Virus record (IMG/VR): IMGVR_UViG_3300042940_001591
Reading direction: 5' to 3' (one strand)
Origin: a virus
Lineage: Duplodnaviria > Caudoviricetes
Length of the DNA stretch: 64,000 nt
This document shows positions 28,085-32,607 of the stretch, one piece after another. Every line of letters starts with the position of its first letter. Position 1 is the first letter of the stretch. Position numbers and translations under genes: made by a program. The notes below the pieces were generated by a model. It had not been told where the DNA came from. It made no database searches and worked only from the letters and a program-made list of their open reading frames with translations.

Positions 28085-28784
28085 CTTGGATTGTGTCTCC
28101 TGACGGGGTGATTGCTGTTTGGGTTAAGTCTAACCCCGGTTTATTTTCGTTGATAAATTTTCTAAAATCTTGTGAGTCCTTAATCGGCATGTTCTCAACA
28201 AAGTTTCTAATATTCATTAGGTCTTTATTGCCCGCGACCGATTTAATCATCATTTCAAGTTGTTTAGTGATAATTGGAGCCACTCCGTTACCGTTCCAAC
28301 TATCTCTAATTGCGTCTATTTCCTTTTCTTGTTTCTTATTTAAAAAATTAAATGTGATATCTAATTTTGATTTTTCCATGAAATAAGAATATTCACCATT
28401 TGAATCTGCAACTAATTTAAAGTCTTTTGTTTTTACTGTTGATAAATCTAATTCAAAATCAAACTGTTCTCCTGTTTTTGGGTCTGTTGATGTAACTTTA
28501 TAATCACTACCAAATGAGGTATTTCTTAAGAATATTAAAATCGCTTGTCTATCCTCCTCAACCAAATCATCGATAGGTAAATCTTTATCTAAAATTTTTC
28601 TTTTTAGTAATTCGTCAACAACTTTATTAGTTGCAATTAAACTTGGGGATGATAAGATATTCTCATCTGCGGCGGTTAAGTATGCGATTCTTACCGATTT
28701 TTTGTTATTTGTATAATGAATACCTCTACTTGGTAATTCAACTACGTCATAAGCAATGTTGGGGTCAATTCTAAATTCTTCCAT
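28035..28784 (-). CDS. Baseplate hub / tail assembly chaperone, T4 gp26-like
   Basis: YDVVELPSRGIHY...LTAADENIL...LRNTSFGSDY...DPKTGEQFDFELDL...IGFGVEFFRP; lies between tube and tape measure. Confidence 0.8.
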   Translation of the reverse strand: MEEFRIDPNIAYDVVELPSRGIHYTNNKKSVRIAYLTAADENILSSPSLIATNKVVDELLKRKILDKDLPIDDLVEEDRQAILIFLRNTSFGSDYKVTSTDPKTGEQFDFELDLSTVKTKDFKLVADSNGEYSYFMEKSKLDITFNFLNKKQEKEIDAIRDSWNGNGVAPIITKQLEMMIKSVAGNKDLMNIRNFVENMPIKDSQDFRKFINENKPGLDLTQTAITPSGDTIQVEIGFGVEFFRPFYGL

Positions 28785-28828
28785 AGTACAATTTAAACTA
28801 TAAGTAGATTAAAGTAAAGTTTTTGCAT

Positions 28829-28880
28829 AAAAAAAACCGACAACCCATTAGACAGATTTACTAATTTGATTATCGGTTTT
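28829..28880 (-). terminator. Long hairpin terminator after the tail tube gene
   Basis: Minus strand AAAACCGATAATC...GGTTGTCGGTTTT followed by TTTT. Confidence 0.65.
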
Positions 28881-28898
28881 AATATTAAATAGAAACTA

Positions 28899-29387
28899 TT
28901 AGTATACTTGGATACAACGGTCCATTCTCAAGTTACAAGTAATTTGAGCTAAAGCATCGTTGTTGTAATCTAAATCACCAAAGTTTAAACTTGTTAAGAA
29001 ACAACCTTGGATAATCCATTTTTCAACAACAACTCCTGTTGGGTCAAGCATTTCAAGTTCAATGTCTTTTTTGTATCCGGCAGCATATCCCATTCTACCT
29101 GTTACTGATTCCGCATGTAAACGGAACCATTCCATTAACGCTTGAGAAGCTGAAGGACCAATCGGGTCTTTAAAAGTAACACTCATTTCTTCCCAAGTGA
29201 ATCTACCAGCAACATAAGTTGAAGTATTCAAGAAAGGAATCTCTGTTGAGTTAATTTTAGCTGAAGGTCTTTTTGTTGAAGATACATACCATTCGTTAAT
29301 TCCCAAAGATGAAGGGAATCTAAGAATAAATCTGTTCTGTCTTTTCGGTTCGTAAGGAACCGGCATTTTCATTAGTAAATCTGCCAT
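28899..29387 (-). CDS. Tail tube protein (gp19-like)
   Basis: YEPKRQNRFIL, AGRFTWEEMSVTFKDPI, YKKDIELEMLDPTGVVVEKWIIQGCF, ITCNLRMDRC. Confidence 0.93.
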   Translation of the reverse strand: MADLLMKMPVPYEPKRQNRFILRFPSSLGINEWYVSSTKRPSAKINSTEIPFLNTSTYVAGRFTWEEMSVTFKDPIGPSASQALMEWFRLHAESVTGRMGYAAGYKKDIELEMLDPTGVVVEKWIIQGCFLTSLNFGDLDYNNDALAQITCNLRMDRCIQVY

Positions 29388-29511
29388 TTTGTATTTGTTA
29401 AATTTTTTGTTATTTTATACTTCTTATAAATATGTGTTATTTGGAAATAAATTTATTTTTGGTTAGGTACTTGATTTTATCAATTATTTTTCGTAGTTTT
29501 TTACAAACCCT

Positions 29512-29620
29512 CCAGTATTCTAGTTCCAGTAATAAATAATATATCTATTTTTTAATAATTTATTCAATATTAAATAAATACTAGTATAACCAGTTCTAGA
29601 TTATACTAGTATATACTGGG
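29512..29620. other. Origin-like element: 48/50 AT core flanked by CCAGT/CTAGT repeats and palindromes
   Basis: AT core at 29531-29580; ATACTAGTAT palindromes at 29578 and 29603; CCAGTAT (29512) and ATACTGG (29613) form an outer inverted repeat. Confidence 0.45.
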
Positions 29621-29651
29621 TGCAGTAAAACAATCCAATCATTATACAAAA

Positions 29652-29674
29652 GGTTCCACGTGGAACGTTCCACA
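29652..29674. promoter_or_regulatory. parS-like palindrome with an extra half-site
   Basis: GTTCCAC-GTGGAAC-GTTCCAC at 29653-29673; the 16-mer GGTTCCACGTGGAACG matches TGTTCCACGTGGAACA at 14/16 positions. Confidence 0.65.
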
Positions 29675-29704
29675 AATAAAGAAGGAGGTCCAAAGACCCC
29701 CTTC
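29675..29704 (-). terminator. Terminator after the tail sheath gene
   Basis: Minus strand GAAGGGGGTC-TTTG-GACCTCCTTC followed by TTTATTT. Confidence 0.75.
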
Positions 29705-29727
29705 CTATTTTTATATCTCCTTTTAGA

Positions 29728-32607
29728 TTAGATATTCTCAAATGAGGCTCCTGTTGGAGTGATTACAAATTCAACATCAATAAATTCAAGAGAACGAGTA
29801 GGTTTAATATAAATTTTACCTCTCAATGTGTTTGCATCAATATCTTCTGGGTCACTAGAAACAGTAACTTTGAATTCGTACAAACCTCTTTCCTTTTTAA
29901 TTGAATCCAAGATAGGGTTAACCAATCTTAAGAACTCTTGTCTTACTTGCTCGTCATTTTGTTCAAATAACAATCTTACCGCAACTGCTGAAATTAATTT
30001 TCTTGCTCTCAATAATAATCTTCTTACGTTGATTCTATCCAATGCAGATTCTCTTACTTGAAGTGTTTTGTTACCCCAAATAATTGTACCTGTATCAGAG
30101 AAAGTTGCAATTGGGTTGATTCTATTCTTATATAATTCATCTCTTTCGTCTAAAGTTAATTTTTTGGTTGCTTTAATGGCATTTACCAAACCTCTTGAAT
30201 AACCCGCGACTGCGAACCAAGGATAAGAAACGTTGTCGGTTAATGCGATATTCTTCAATACCTCACCTGTTGGTGGGATATATAGTTGAGTTGCATTATC
30301 CGTATCTCTTACTTGAATCCAAGGCCAATATGTTGCAGAATAGTTAGAATCAATAGATACTGTATCTAATTCACCAACAACGTCAGCAGCTGCGGTTGTT
30401 CCCGTAATGTTAGGAGAGTTCATAATGTATAATGAATCTGCTCTATCATTCTCAATCATATCAATTGCTTGATTAACTAAAGAACTATGGTCACGGAAGT
30501 TAATACCTGGAGTTGCAAATACGTTAATATCAACCGCTTCAGGGTTAGCAAATGTGTTTATAGCGTCTAAATAAGCATAATAGTCAGAGTTTCCATTATC
30601 AGCGTTAAACACCCCACTATACGCACCAGTTGTTTTATTATTGTTGTAAGTTGTTTTACCAAATATATAACCGTCGGTGTTGGTTCTTGATGTTCTATAG
30701 ATATCCCAACCATCTGTACCTCCACATGTTGCAAATGTAAATTTACGATATGCAATATTTTCTAACGCTCCTTTTGTTATACCTTCTAAATCGTAAGGTG
30801 TACATTGGTATGTAGTTCCTGTAATATCGGTAGCATTAACAGATAAGTGGAATCCGAAAGTTTCAGTTGTACCACTTGTACCTTTATATTTAAATAAATC
30901 CTTATCAAATCCGACTTGTGATGATAATCCTAACATTACTTTCTTTACCTTATCACCTGACTCAATATTTTCAGTACCGTCTGCGTTATATGTTACTACA
31001 TCACCAGCATCGATATATTCAGTTTTATAAATTACACTACCTAATGTTGTTCCACTAAAGTTTGCATTATTAACAAATCCTTTAAATCCTGCAGGGAACG
31101 CATCCGATGGATGATTATCAGCTAAAGATAACATTATATATTTTGAACGTAATTCGTACTCACCATCGGCGGTACCTATTTTTCTACCAACAAAACCTGG
31201 CATGTCAGGATTCATAGAACATCTTGAATATTTTTCAAGAACAACCATATTGTCATCAGTATCGTTAAAATCACGAACAACAATGTCAAATTCACCTGAA
31301 TCTAAATTAATGTTTTGGATTGTTATTTTAACTTGGTAGTTAGAACCTTCACCGTCTGAAATTGTTATTACTTCAAATAAATCTGAAACTTTTCCACCAC
31401 GAACTTCTGAAACCACCATTGGAGATAAAGATGTTGACCATTGACCTAAAAAGTTAGAACCTTCATCATTAAAAACTTTAGTTGTACTTAAACCTCTAAT
31501 CAATCCTCTTTCATAAGCGGATTTAACTAAATTAGGATAAGATTCATAAACATAAAGAGGAAAATCTTCATATGACTTGTCAAATACATCAGAACCTAAT
31601 ACTTTTTTAATGTATTTTGTTGACGTTGTATCTAAAGTACAATTAAATGATTTTGCACCTCCTGTTGTTCCTGTAACATTAATTTGAAATTCACCTAATG
31701 GATTTAATTCAATATCTGTAACTTCGGCCAATGAAACTTGTGTGGTGCCCGTAACTTCATAAGTTAATATCTCTGAAGCATAACGACCTCTTGATCTTAA
31801 TGTTGCCACAGATATACTATCATAATCGGTATTAACCTCAGCACCAAATGTGTATTTTACAACATCAAATCTAGTAGTACCTGAATTCCAAGCAAATTTA
31901 TATGAATAAAGTTGATTAATTGTTGCACCTGAATTAAAGAAAGTATTGTACCATTCTTTATTATTAGGTGTTTCACTGTATAGTTTACCTGTTAAAGGCG
32001 ATACAACTTGTAATGTCGTACTAGGTAATGTTACACCTGAAGGCATTAAACCAATTGTAAACCATTTACCGTCATCTGTAGTTGTAAAACCACTAAAATT
32101 TGATACTATATAACTTGTTATAGATACTCCTTCTGTTGAAGTTTTACCCGATAACTCACCATATATTGTACTTCCGGTAATTGTTGCGGTTGTTGCAGAC
32201 ATAGTAGTACTTCCAGACGTACTATAACTTGAATCCCAAGTAGCACCTGTTGGTGAAATACCACCTAATGTTTTTATTGCGAATGTTTTACCTGCTTTAT
32301 ATCCAGTCAATCCAAGTACTCTTGTTACGAATAATTGGTTTGACTCTTGTAAATAAGATTTAGCTACGTAAGGTAACTCATATTTTGGGTTATTAGATCC
32401 GTCTCCATATTTTTCTGGAGAGGTACCGCCAAAGTATGTTTTGAATTCGTCGAAGTCTCCTATTAAAATTGGTTCGAAAGCTGGACCTTTTAAGGTTTCA
32501 CCTACTAATCCCAATGTTGTTACTCCGACACTTTGAGCCACGAATGTTAGATCCTTCTCAGATGTGTAGACACCTGGAGAAACGAATACTCTGTTTGAAT
32601 TTGCCAT
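29728..32607 (-). CDS. Tail sheath protein (gp18-like)
   Basis: FVSPGVYTSEKDL, LVGETLKGPAFEP, YWPW, PPTGEV, PWFAVAGYSRG, RDELYKNRINPI, IWGNKTLQ, ALDRINVRRLL, IKPTRSLEFI. Confidence 0.97.
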   Translation of the reverse strand: MANSNRVFVSPGVYTSEKDLTFVAQSVGVTTLGLVGETLKGPAFEPILIGDFDEFKTYFGGTSPEKYGDGSNNPKYELPYVAKSYLQESNQLFVTRVLGLTGYKAGKTFAIKTLGGISPTGATWDSSYSTSGSTTMSATTATITGSTIYGELSGKTSTEGVSITSYIVSNFSGFTTTDDGKWFTIGLMPSGVTLPSTTLQVVSPLTGKLYSETPNNKEWYNTFFNSGATINQLYSYKFAWNSGTTRFDVVKYTFGAEVNTDYDSISVATLRSRGRYASEILTYEVTGTTQVSLAEVTDIELNPLGEFQINVTGTTGGAKSFNCTLDTTSTKYIKKVLGSDVFDKSYEDFPLYVYESYPNLVKSAYERGLIRGLSTTKVFNDEGSNFLGQWSTSLSPMVVSEVRGGKVSDLFEVITISDGEGSNYQVKITIQNINLDSGEFDIVVRDFNDTDDNMVVLEKYSRCSMNPDMPGFVGRKIGTADGEYELRSKYIMLSLADNHPSDAFPAGFKGFVNNANFSGTTLGSVIYKTEYIDAGDVVTYNADGTENIESGDKVKKVMLGLSSQVGFDKDLFKYKGTSGTTETFGFHLSVNATDITGTTYQCTPYDLEGITKGALENIAYRKFTFATCGGTDGWDIYRTSRTNTDGYIFGKTTYNNNKTTGAYSGVFNADNGNSDYYAYLDAINTFANPEAVDINVFATPGINFRDHSSLVNQAIDMIENDRADSLYIMNSPNITGTTAAADVVGELDTVSIDSNYSATYWPWIQVRDTDNATQLYIPPTGEVLKNIALTDNVSYPWFAVAGYSRGLVNAIKATKKLTLDERDELYKNRINPIATFSDTGTIIWGNKTLQVRESALDRINVRRLLLRARKLISAVAVRLLFEQNDEQVRQEFLRLVNPILDSIKKERGLYEFKVTVSSDPEDIDANTLRGKIYIKPTRSLEFIDVEFVITPTGASFENI

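What the first reader, a model, noticed from the sequence alone, without database searches (positions are those of the whole stretch)
29652..29674. Chromosomal parS-like centromere site in a lytic-looking phage
Seen: GTTCCACGTGGAAC palindrome plus a third half-site (GTTCCAC), GC-rich within an AT-rich gap. Established: bacterial parS sites (TGTTNCACGTGAAACA family, including TGTTCCACGTGGAACA) load ParB-CTP clamps and SMC near oriC. No ParA or ParB is seen in this window. Inference: the phage may recruit host ParB/SMC to position or segregate its genome (e.g. pseudolysogeny or plasmid-like carriage) or titrate ParB away from the host chromosome. I am not aware of this being a standard feature of T4-like phages.
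Basis: partly seen in the sequence, partly recalled or inferred. Interest (0 to 1): 0.8.

Follow-up and report, generated by a model that had tools for sequence, protein, structure and literature searches.

The report
Host-type parS site on jumbo phage
A large T4-like lake-water phage that has no partition genes of its own carries, between its tail sheath and tail tube genes, an exact copy of the DNA docking site that its likely Bacteroidota hosts use for their chromosome-segregation protein ParB. I found no published case of this, and it could explain how such phages persist in cells without integrating.

Summary
GTTCCACGTGGAAC (29653-29666) plus an abutting GTTCCAC (29667-29673) is unique in the 150.9-kb phage record. 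It lies in the 340-bp gap between tail sheath and tail tube, just after the sheath terminator.

The parS reading survived the tests I could run.
- The phage belongs to the published bS21-encoding jumbo myophages of freshwater Bacteroidota.
- In three Bacteroidota orders, 80 of 97 genomes carry GTTYCA(C/T)(G/A)TGRAAC. They usually have 2-4 copies next to mnmG, and the phage's exact 14-mer is the commonest spelling in two of the orders.
- Host genomes encode canonical ParA-ParB. The phage and five large relatives show no ParB, ParA or integrase.
- 53 of 80 related phage loci keep a site with at most 2 mismatches next to the tube gene, while the flanks have diverged.
- The site moved once from upstream to downstream of the tube gene and was lost at least three times.
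- The variant spellings match those tolerated by Pseudomonas ParB.

ParB binding itself is untested, and its consequence is inferred: partition or organisation of unintegrated phage DNA, ParB titration, or local silencing. This same stretch was also noted in an overlapping window of this scan. I class it as a new variant of a known kind, interest about 0.7.

The parts
29653..29666 (.). 14-bp perfect palindrome GTTCCACGTGGAAC, the core of a chromosomal-type parS site
   Evidence: unique in the window and in the record; the identical 14-mer is used at mnmG in Bacteroidota chromosomes; conserved in related phages.
29667..29673 (+). Extra parS half-site heptamer GTTCCAC abutting the palindrome
   Evidence: Intact only in the nearest relatives L002/L003. 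Other lineages (L016/17, L044/49, L025) have an extra GTTCCAC 9-10 bp upstream instead. Pseudomonas ParB binds this heptamer in ChIP-seq (PMC5961200).
29679..29706 (-). Intrinsic terminator of the tail sheath gene (12-bp stem, T-run)
   Evidence: scan. fold: -19.2 kcal/mol, z -4.4. Relatives have a hairpin of different sequence at the same place.
29641..29646 (-). TATAAT-like hexamer 6 nt downstream of the palindrome on the gene strand; a possible promoter -10 box of unproven function
   Evidence: TATAA stands at the same offset in about 26 of 41 unique contexts. It moved together with the site in part of the 'downstream' clade.
29575..29620 (-). Conserved CCCAGTAT motif followed by ACTAGTAT / CTAGAAC word repeats, including a 15-nt inverted repeat
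   Evidence: CCCAGTAT is also kept in relatives that lack the palindrome.
29425..29432 (-). Sense-strand TATTTATA, the gene-proximal promoter-type motif of this phage, about 40 nt before the tube start codon
   Evidence: TATTTATA occurs in 24 of 117 upstream regions in the sense orientation against 6 in the antisense orientation.
29728..32607 (-). Tail sheath gene (959 aa)
   Evidence: phrog_23, E 4e-61.
28899..29387 (-). Tail tube gene (162 aa)
   Evidence: phrog_4542, E 3e-26; more than 594 relatives in IMG/VR.

Best explanation
The palindrome is a genuine chromosomal-type parS site, that is, a docking and loading site for the ParB protein of the Bacteroidota host. The phage supplies only the cis-acting DNA site. 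The host supplies ParB and, through it, ParA and possibly condensin. The site sits between the sheath terminator and the tube-proximal promoter, where transcribing RNA polymerase is least likely to sweep ParB off. Once ParB-CTP clamps load there, unintegrated phage genomes would be treated like a host origin region. They could be positioned or partitioned by ParA, or compacted, which would give an integrase-less jumbo phage a way to persist in dividing cells (carrier state or pseudolysogeny) or to organise its replicating DNA. What is shown: sequence identity to host parS, conservation in relatives, and the absence of phage par genes. What is inferred: ParB binding, clamp loading and the physiological outcome.
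For: (1) Host phylum. The phage's bS21 matches only Bacteroidota genomes. The genome fits the published bS21 jumbo phages of freshwater Bacteroidetes (293-331 kb, 31-34% GC, no integrase, pseudolysogeny suggested; PMC9723584).
(2) Host parS. GTTYCACGTGRAAC occurs in 13 of 15 genomes of one order, as two sites flanking mnmG. GTTYCAYRTGRAAC occurs in 35 of 41 and 32 of 41 genomes of two other orders, in clusters of 2-4 sites between ybeY and mnmG, where GTTCCACGTGGAAC is the commonest spelling. The reversed-pattern control is near zero.
(3) These host genomes encode one canonical parA-parB operon. The ParB has ParB_N, HTH_ParB and ParB_C domains and matches Spo0J 1vz0 at E 6e-52, as well as the ParB-parS co-crystal proteins 6t1f and 4umk.
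(4) Conservation. The related loci hold 58, 43 and 14 sites with at most 2, at most 1 and 0 mismatches in 438 kb, against 3.1, 0.12 and 0 in shuffles. 53 of them lie in intergenic DNA beside the tube gene, while the flanks carry about 0.1-0.4 bits per position. L005 and L039 carry the perfect 16-mer TGTTCCACGTGGAACA.
(5) The variable positions are those variable in real parS sites: Y/R at core positions 4 and 11, CACATG also inside host clusters, and GGAACC, CACGAG and GCTCCAC, which match Pseudomonas parS1/4, parS7 and ChIP-tolerated half-sites (PMC4368675; PMC5961200).
(6) Extra GTTCCAC heptamers recur in 4 lineages, and L034 has two sites 46 bp apart, like host pairs.
(7) On the tube-gene tree the upstream position is ancestral, and the downstream position is one clade with 99% support.
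(8) No ParB_N, HTH_ParB, AAA_31 or tyrosine integrase was found in G000 or in large relatives.
(9) Precedent: a single parS plus host parAB stabilises an unstable plasmid (PMC4368675).
Against: No binding data exist for any Bacteroidota ParB or for this site. The host is known only to phylum level. 24 of 76 assessable relatives lack a site near the tube gene, and two relatives of 176-184 kb (51-59% complete) have none at all at up to 1 mismatch, so the site is dispensable. Many relatives have a degraded second arm (CACAAG, CACGCG, CACGGG) altered at the position that is strictly conserved in Pseudomonas half-sites. There is a single site per genome, whereas hosts use 2-4. The near-constant 5-8-nt spacing to a TATAAT-like box suggests a transcriptional role. 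Phage DNA might be base-modified, which could alter ParB recognition; this was not determined. All phage records searched are incomplete, so a phage par gene could have been missed.
Confidence: 0.55

Rival explanations
1. The site is an operator of the adjacent promoter-like element. It is read by an unidentified phage-encoded (or non-ParB host) dimeric regulator and resembles parS by convergence.
For: A TATAA box lies at a fixed 5-8-nt offset in about 26 of 41 unique contexts. Site and box moved together in part of the downstream clade. The site is single-copy and always beside the tube gene. One arm is often degenerate, as in many operators.
Against: A 14/14 (in relatives 16/16) identity with the host-phylum parS, together with the same tolerated variant positions, would have to be coincidence. 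No candidate regulator was found. TATAAT is not the motif enriched before this phage's genes, which is TATTTATA.
Confidence: 0.2
2. Host ParB does bind, but the selected function is local. A ParB complex would act as a repressor, roadblock or insulator between the sheath and tube transcription units, or would time the adjacent promoter according to ParB availability. It would not serve genome partition or compaction.
For: Pseudomonas ParB bound at parS3/parS4 represses adjacent promoters, and ParB spreading silences genes on test plasmids (PMC5521831; PMC4368675). The site is always placed between a terminator and promoter-like DNA.
Against: A strong terminator already separates the two units. 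Relatives that lost the site keep the same gene order and terminator. Nothing shows that the TATAAT element is active.
Confidence: 0.15
3. The palindrome acts as a nucleic-acid hairpin: a second, back-up intrinsic terminator or an RNA processing site.
For: The consensus scan lists it as terminator-like, with a 5-bp stem, 4-nt loop and CTTTTGT tail. It directly follows the main terminator.
Against: The fold is only -6.4 kcal/mol with z -0.9, no better than shuffles. Its letters are conserved, while true terminators nearby change sequence freely. Asymmetric variants occur in both orientations relative to the gene strand. There is no Rfam match.
Confidence: 0.04
4. The site is a non-functional relic, such as a captured host fragment or a chance palindrome, that persists by descent.
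For: It was lost at least three times. The central CpG-to-TpG change is frequent.
Against: The core is retained while the flanks are randomised. It was relocated once yet kept. There are 43 sites with at most 1 mismatch against 0.12 expected. No flanking similarity to host DNA was seen.
Confidence: 0.06

Closest known systems
Chromosomal parS sites of the ParABS system (consensus TGTTNCACGTGAAACA; e.g. Pseudomonas aeruginosa parS2/3 TGTTCCACGTGGAACA)
   Same: The 14-bp core is identical. The degenerate position (T/C in each arm) is the same, and so are the tolerated variants (GGAACC end, CACGAG centre, GCTCCAC arm). It is an intergenic palindrome. Half-site heptamers accompany it.
   Different: It lies on a virus, not on a chromosome near oriC. 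There is one site per genome instead of 2-10. The replicon that carries it encodes no ParA or ParB.
Partition loci of plasmid-prophages (P1 parABS, N15 sopAB-type)
   Same: A phage genome with a centromere-like site that could support extrachromosomal inheritance.
   Different: Those phages encode their own ParA and ParB and have element-specific centromeres. This phage has neither gene and uses the host's spelling. It is a T4-like myophage with no recognised lysogeny genes (PMC9723584).
Laboratory plasmids stabilised by a cloned chromosomal parS using host ParAB (cited in PMC4368675)
   Same: The logic is the same: the replicon contributes only a cis site and the cell provides the partition proteins.
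   Different: Those are engineered constructs. This would be a natural, evolutionarily maintained case on a genome of about 330 kb.
KorB-OB operators of IncP plasmids and ParB-mediated silencing at parS3/parS4 in P. aeruginosa
   Same: A ParB-family palindrome placed next to a promoter, where binding can repress transcription.
   Different: KorB is encoded by the plasmid and has many operators. Here there is one site and no cognate gene on the element.

Membership tests
Chromosomal-type parS (ParB loading site) | Match to the 16-bp palindromic consensus TGTTNCACGTGAAACA | tested here: met
   The window matches the 14-bp core 14/14, with outer bases G...G. Relatives L005 and L039 match TGTTCCACGTGGAACA 16/16. 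The outer bases also vary in host sites.
Chromosomal-type parS (ParB loading site) | The same spelling is used as parS by the chromosome of the host lineage | tested here: met
   80 of 97 Bacteroidota genomes in three orders carry it next to mnmG, and the exact 14-mer is common. The host is known only to phylum level (PMC9723584).
Chromosomal-type parS (ParB loading site) | A cognate ParB (ParB_N + HTH_ParB) is available in the cell | tested here: met
   Five of five host-phylum genomes that carry the sites encode one canonical ParB, with parA adjacent. The phage itself has none.
Chromosomal-type parS (ParB loading site) | Specific binding by ParB and CTP-dependent clamp loading or spreading | not testable with these tools
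   This needs EMSA/BLI, a CTP-dependent loading assay or ChIP-seq.
Chromosomal-type parS (ParB loading site) | Maintained by selection in related genomes | tested here: met
   53 of 80 loci carry it. The core is conserved while the flanks diverged. It was relocated once and retained. It was lost in at least three lineages.
Self-contained phage/plasmid partition locus (parA-parB-parS) | The element encodes its own ParA-type ATPase and centromere-binding protein | tested here: not met
   No PF02195, PF17762 or PF13614 match in G000 or in relatives of 184-251 kb. All these records are incomplete (45-75%).
Intrinsic (rho-independent) terminator | A stable G+C-rich stem-loop followed by a U-run, with the structure rather than the sequence conserved | tested here: not met
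   -6.4 kcal/mol, z -0.9. The sequence is conserved rather than merely the pairing, and both orientations occur.

The most novel reading that the evidence does not exclude
A T4-like jumbo phage of about 330 kb, with no integrase and no partition genes, persists in dividing Bacteroidota cells as a ParABS-partitioned episome by carrying nothing more than the host's own centromere sequence. This would be a minimal, cis-only route to pseudolysogeny, and it would also divert host ParB (and condensin) onto viral DNA.
Probability: 0.2. Interest if true: 0.85.

Novelty: new variant of a known kind. Interest (0 to 1): 0.7.

Why it matters
The bS21 jumbo phages are abundant in lakes. [quoted passage not shown] A conserved host-type parS gives a concrete, testable one: the virus borrows the host's chromosome-segregation machinery through a 14-16-bp site. 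If ParB binds, this would be the first natural case I could find of a virulent-type phage using the host centromere sequence. It would bear on phage persistence, phage DNA organisation and interference with host chromosome segregation. It would also serve as a sequence marker for predicting hosts, because the parS spelling differs between bacterial groups.

Tried and rejected
- Metatranscriptome contigs from four lake runs were laid on 28700-30400. They cover the sheath and tube coding parts of relatives at 90-99% identity but not the intergenic gap. Contigs cannot show transcript ends, so the site's transcription status stays unknown.
- Rfam search of 28700-29900 gave only a sub-threshold chance hit.
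Because the list is truncated, the enrichment cannot be quantified. Only one listed hit came from this phage group, and most others were in G+C-rich contigs or inside ORFs.
- The cultured Flavobacterium myophage immuto (160 kb) has no match at up to 2 mismatches, so there is no ready laboratory model and the site is not a general feature of Flavobacterium myophages.
- The tube protein was searched in 401 sampled Bacteroidia genomes with no match, so there is no evidence of the phage inside host assemblies.
- Genes inserted between sheath and tube in some relatives were checked as candidate readers of the site. They are DUF7487 endonuclease-like, YkuD and GDSL proteins, not DNA-binding regulators.
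- Four literature searches for a host-type parS on lytic phages found nothing relevant.
- I tried to assign the TATAAT box to a promoter class. It is not the TATTTATA motif enriched before this phage's genes and not the Bacteroidota TAnnTTTG type, so it is left open.
- Thymidylate-synthase family search as a proxy for cytosine modification: one relative has a hit, which is uninformative.

Full report
**What is there.** On the + strand the window reads aaaaGGTTCCACGTGGAACGTTCCACaaat. It contains a perfect 14-bp palindrome at 29653-29666 and a third GTTCCAC at 29667-29673.
- With up to two mismatches, this is the only match in the window (0.13 expected) and in the whole 150,872-bp IMG/VR record that holds the window.
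- The looser pattern GTTCC-N4-GGAAC is also unique in that record.
- All neighbouring genes run on the minus strand. The site lies in a 340-bp AT-rich gap between the tail sheath gene (29728-32607) and the tail tube gene (28899-29387).

**Order of features on the gene strand.**
- Sheath stop codon.
- A strong intrinsic terminator (29706-29679; -19.2 kcal/mol, z -4.4).
- GTGGAAC followed by GTTCCACGTGGAAC.
- Six bases, then TATAAT.
- A conserved CCCAGTAT motif and short ACTAGTAT/CTAGAAC repeats.
- The sense-strand TATTTATA motif that precedes many genes of this phage (24 sense against 6 antisense in 117 upstream regions).
- The tube start codon.

**Which phage and which host.**
- The tube protein has more than 594 relatives in IMG/VR, one of them on a 333.6-kb contig. 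The nearest cultured phages are only 38-39% identical.
- The record encodes ribosomal protein bS21 on the opposite strand among head genes. Its only matches among 185,579 species genomes were 14 Bacteroidota, including Saprospiraceae, Cytophagales, Flavobacteriales and Chryseobacterium, at 49-56% identity.
- This fits the bS21-encoding jumbo myophages of freshwater Bacteroidetes described by Chen et al. 2022 (PMC9723584). Those genomes are 293-331 kb with 31-34% G+C and have no integrase or resolvase. [quoted passage not shown]
- I found no tyrosine integrase in this record or in four large relatives.

**Is it the host's parS?** I searched Bacteroidota genomes reached through the bS21 hits.
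- In one order that includes a Flavobacteriales MAG and a Chryseobacterium, 13 of 15 genomes have GTTYCACGTGRAAC. Nearly all have exactly two sites 1.9 kb apart flanking a 622-aa MnmG/GidA gene, and the reversed control pattern gave almost nothing.
- In the orders of a Saprospiraceae MAG and a Cyclobacteriaceae MAG, 35 of 41 and 32 of 41 genomes have GTTYCAYRTGRAAC, in clusters of 2-4 sites 30-160 bp apart. The commonest spelling is exactly GTTCCACGTGGAAC.
- In the 20 clusters I fetched, most lie next to a roughly 620-aa gene, commonly between a YbeY-sized gene and that gene. The bases flanking the 14-mer vary.
- Five of five such genomes encode a single ParB. In the one I examined, it is a 300-aa ParB_N + HTH_ParB + ParB_C protein next to a ParA. 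It matches Spo0J 1vz0 at E 6e-52 and also the proteins crystallised with parS, 6t1f and 4umk.
- So the phage carries the exact core that Bacteroidota chromosomes use as their centromere. That ParB binds it in these bacteria is an inference from the universal parS consensus, not something shown for this phylum.

**Conservation in related phages.**
- Across 80 related loci (438 kb) there are 58, 43 and 14 sites with at most 2, at most 1 and 0 mismatches to the four canonical spellings. Shuffles gave 3.1, 0.12 and 0.
- Fifty-three of these sites are intergenic and next to the tube gene. They lie either 220-267 bp upstream (1.75-1.8 kb upstream in L034, behind an inserted gene) or 60-96 bp downstream of the tube gene.
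- The flanking DNA carries about 0.1-0.4 bits per position, while the core is nearly invariant. That comparison is biased by how the sites were chosen.
- The adjacent real terminators change sequence freely between lineages, whereas the palindrome keeps its letters.
- On a tube-gene tree the upstream position is spread over the whole tree. The downstream position forms one clade (support 99). Absence needs at least three losses.
- Two large relatives from the site-less clade have no match at up to 1 mismatch in 176-184 kb.

**The spelling variants behave like parS.**
- Relatives show T/C at core position 4 and A/G at position 11, the classic degenerate position. Examples are GTTCCACGTGAAAC in L020-24 and GTTTCACGAGAAAC in L052/55.
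- Other variants include GCTCCAC arms and centres CACATG/CATGTG (in either orientation relative to the gene), CACGAG, CACAAG, CACGCG and CACGGG.
- CACATG variants also occur inside host clusters beside perfect sites.
- In Pseudomonas aeruginosa, parS1/4 end in GGAACC like the window's gene strand. parS7 is TGTTCCACGAGGAACG and binds ParB in vitro (PMC4368675).
- ParB ChIP-seq in that species shows binding to the single heptamer GTTCCAC, with tolerated variants GTTTCAC, GTTCCAT and GCTCCAC (PMC5961200).
- Lineages whose second arm is degraded tend to carry an extra intact GTTCCAC 9-10 bp upstream (L016/17, L044/49, L025). The window has one abutting the palindrome, and L034 has two sites 46 bp apart. 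About 0.13 extra heptamers would be expected by chance in the 41 contexts (my estimate from base composition).
- The occurrence of asymmetric variants in both orientations argues for a duplex DNA site rather than an RNA element.

**No reader encoded by the phage.** ParB_N, HTH_ParB and ParA-type AAA_31 profiles found nothing in this record or in relatives of 184-251 kb, while controls responded. All of these records are 45-75% complete, so this is strong but not final. Genes inserted between sheath and tube in some relatives are endonuclease-like DUF7487, YkuD and GDSL proteins.

**How it most likely works (inference).**
- Host ParB binds the site and loads as CTP-dependent clamps on phage DNA.
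- The position just behind a strong terminator and ahead of the next promoter would shield the complex from transcription in a genome that is about 93% coding.
- The consequences could be ParA-driven positioning or partition of unintegrated genomes, in line with the pseudolysogeny suspected for this group and with the known ability of one parS plus parAB to stabilise a plasmid.
- Other possible consequences are condensin loading, titration of ParB from the host origin, or local silencing of the neighbouring TATAAT element, as at parS3/4 of Pseudomonas.
- I cannot separate these possibilities. The near-constant 5-8-nt spacing to TATAA in about 26 of 41 contexts keeps the regulatory reading alive.

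**Rivals.**
- A weak hairpin terminator is unlikely: -6.4 kcal/mol and z -0.9, no Rfam family, and the sequence is conserved rather than only the pairing.
- Chance or relic status is unlikely given the counts and the relocation.
- An unknown phage regulator with parS-like specificity cannot be excluded.

**Novelty.** Four full-text searches found no report of a host-type chromosomal parS on a virulent-type phage. Known phage centromeres (P1, N15) come with their own ParAB. The cultured Flavobacterium myophage immuto has no such site. I class the finding as a new variant of a known kind.

Noticed in passing
window 29575-29622; L002-L081 upstream of the tube gene: CCCAGTAT followed by arrays of short words (ACTAGTAT, CTAGAAC, TTAGTA-type) fills the sheath-tube gap in nearly all relatives, including those without the palindrome. 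The window has a 15-nt inverted repeat TAAATACTAGTATAA / TTATACTAGTATATA. It resembles the word arrays that another report of this scan described between early genes.
   Followed up: partly
L023, L038, L041, L043, L051, L053, L065, L067, L071 (sheath-tube gap): The clade that lacks the parS-like site has a different conserved block (AAGTAAAAATTGAGATGAC) at the equivalent place, directly before CCCAGTAT.
   Followed up: no
L018, L020, L021, L050, L079, downstream of the tube gene: In part of the 'downstream' clade a second palindrome of the type AATTGATAATCAATT lies between the tube terminator and the parS-like site. A TTGATT-N17-TATATT sigma-70-like pair follows the site.
   Followed up: no
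L034 1398-2951, L081 1282-2895, L039 903-2432, L025 1040-1738, L056 2116-2739: The sheath-tube gap is an insertion hotspot in relatives. Inserted genes include DUF7487/REase-like (probable homing endonuclease), a YkuD L,D-transpeptidase and a GDSL lipase.
   Followed up: partly
Bacteroidota genomes G005-G105 (loci L100-L123): In most loci fetched from three orders, parS clusters sit next to mnmG (gidA), usually between ybeY and mnmG, while parAB can be far away (G104: sites at 0.575 Mb, parB at 1.94 Mb). One order mixes T- and C-type arms, and the other two mostly use GTTCCACGTGGAAC. The phage sites are C-type in 38 of 41 contexts, a weak hint towards hosts in the latter orders.
   Followed up: partly
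window 29386-29388: Two RNA-library contigs of relatives end at or a few bases upstream of the tube start codon and continue into Illumina adapter sequence. This is a weak hint that the tube mRNA starts very close to its ATG.
   Followed up: no
G000 whole record: Sense-strand TATTTATA is the most enriched 8-mer in the 80 nt before long ORFs (24 of 117 regions, against 6 antisense). This confirms the orientation reported by first-stage notes.
   Followed up: yes
phage sites in L019, L026, L027, L029, L032, L035, L040, L042, L050, L057, L060, L066: The commonest departure from the perfect palindrome is CACGTG to CACATG/CATGTG, a transition at the central CpG. It toggles between very close relatives and might reflect cytosine methylation and deamination.
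   Followed up: no
L308 (G025:C1:37928-39034): One relative encodes a 409-aa thymidylate-synthase-family protein (318 bits). I did not examine whether it is ThyA or a pyrimidine hydroxymethylase that would modify the phage DNA.
   Followed up: no
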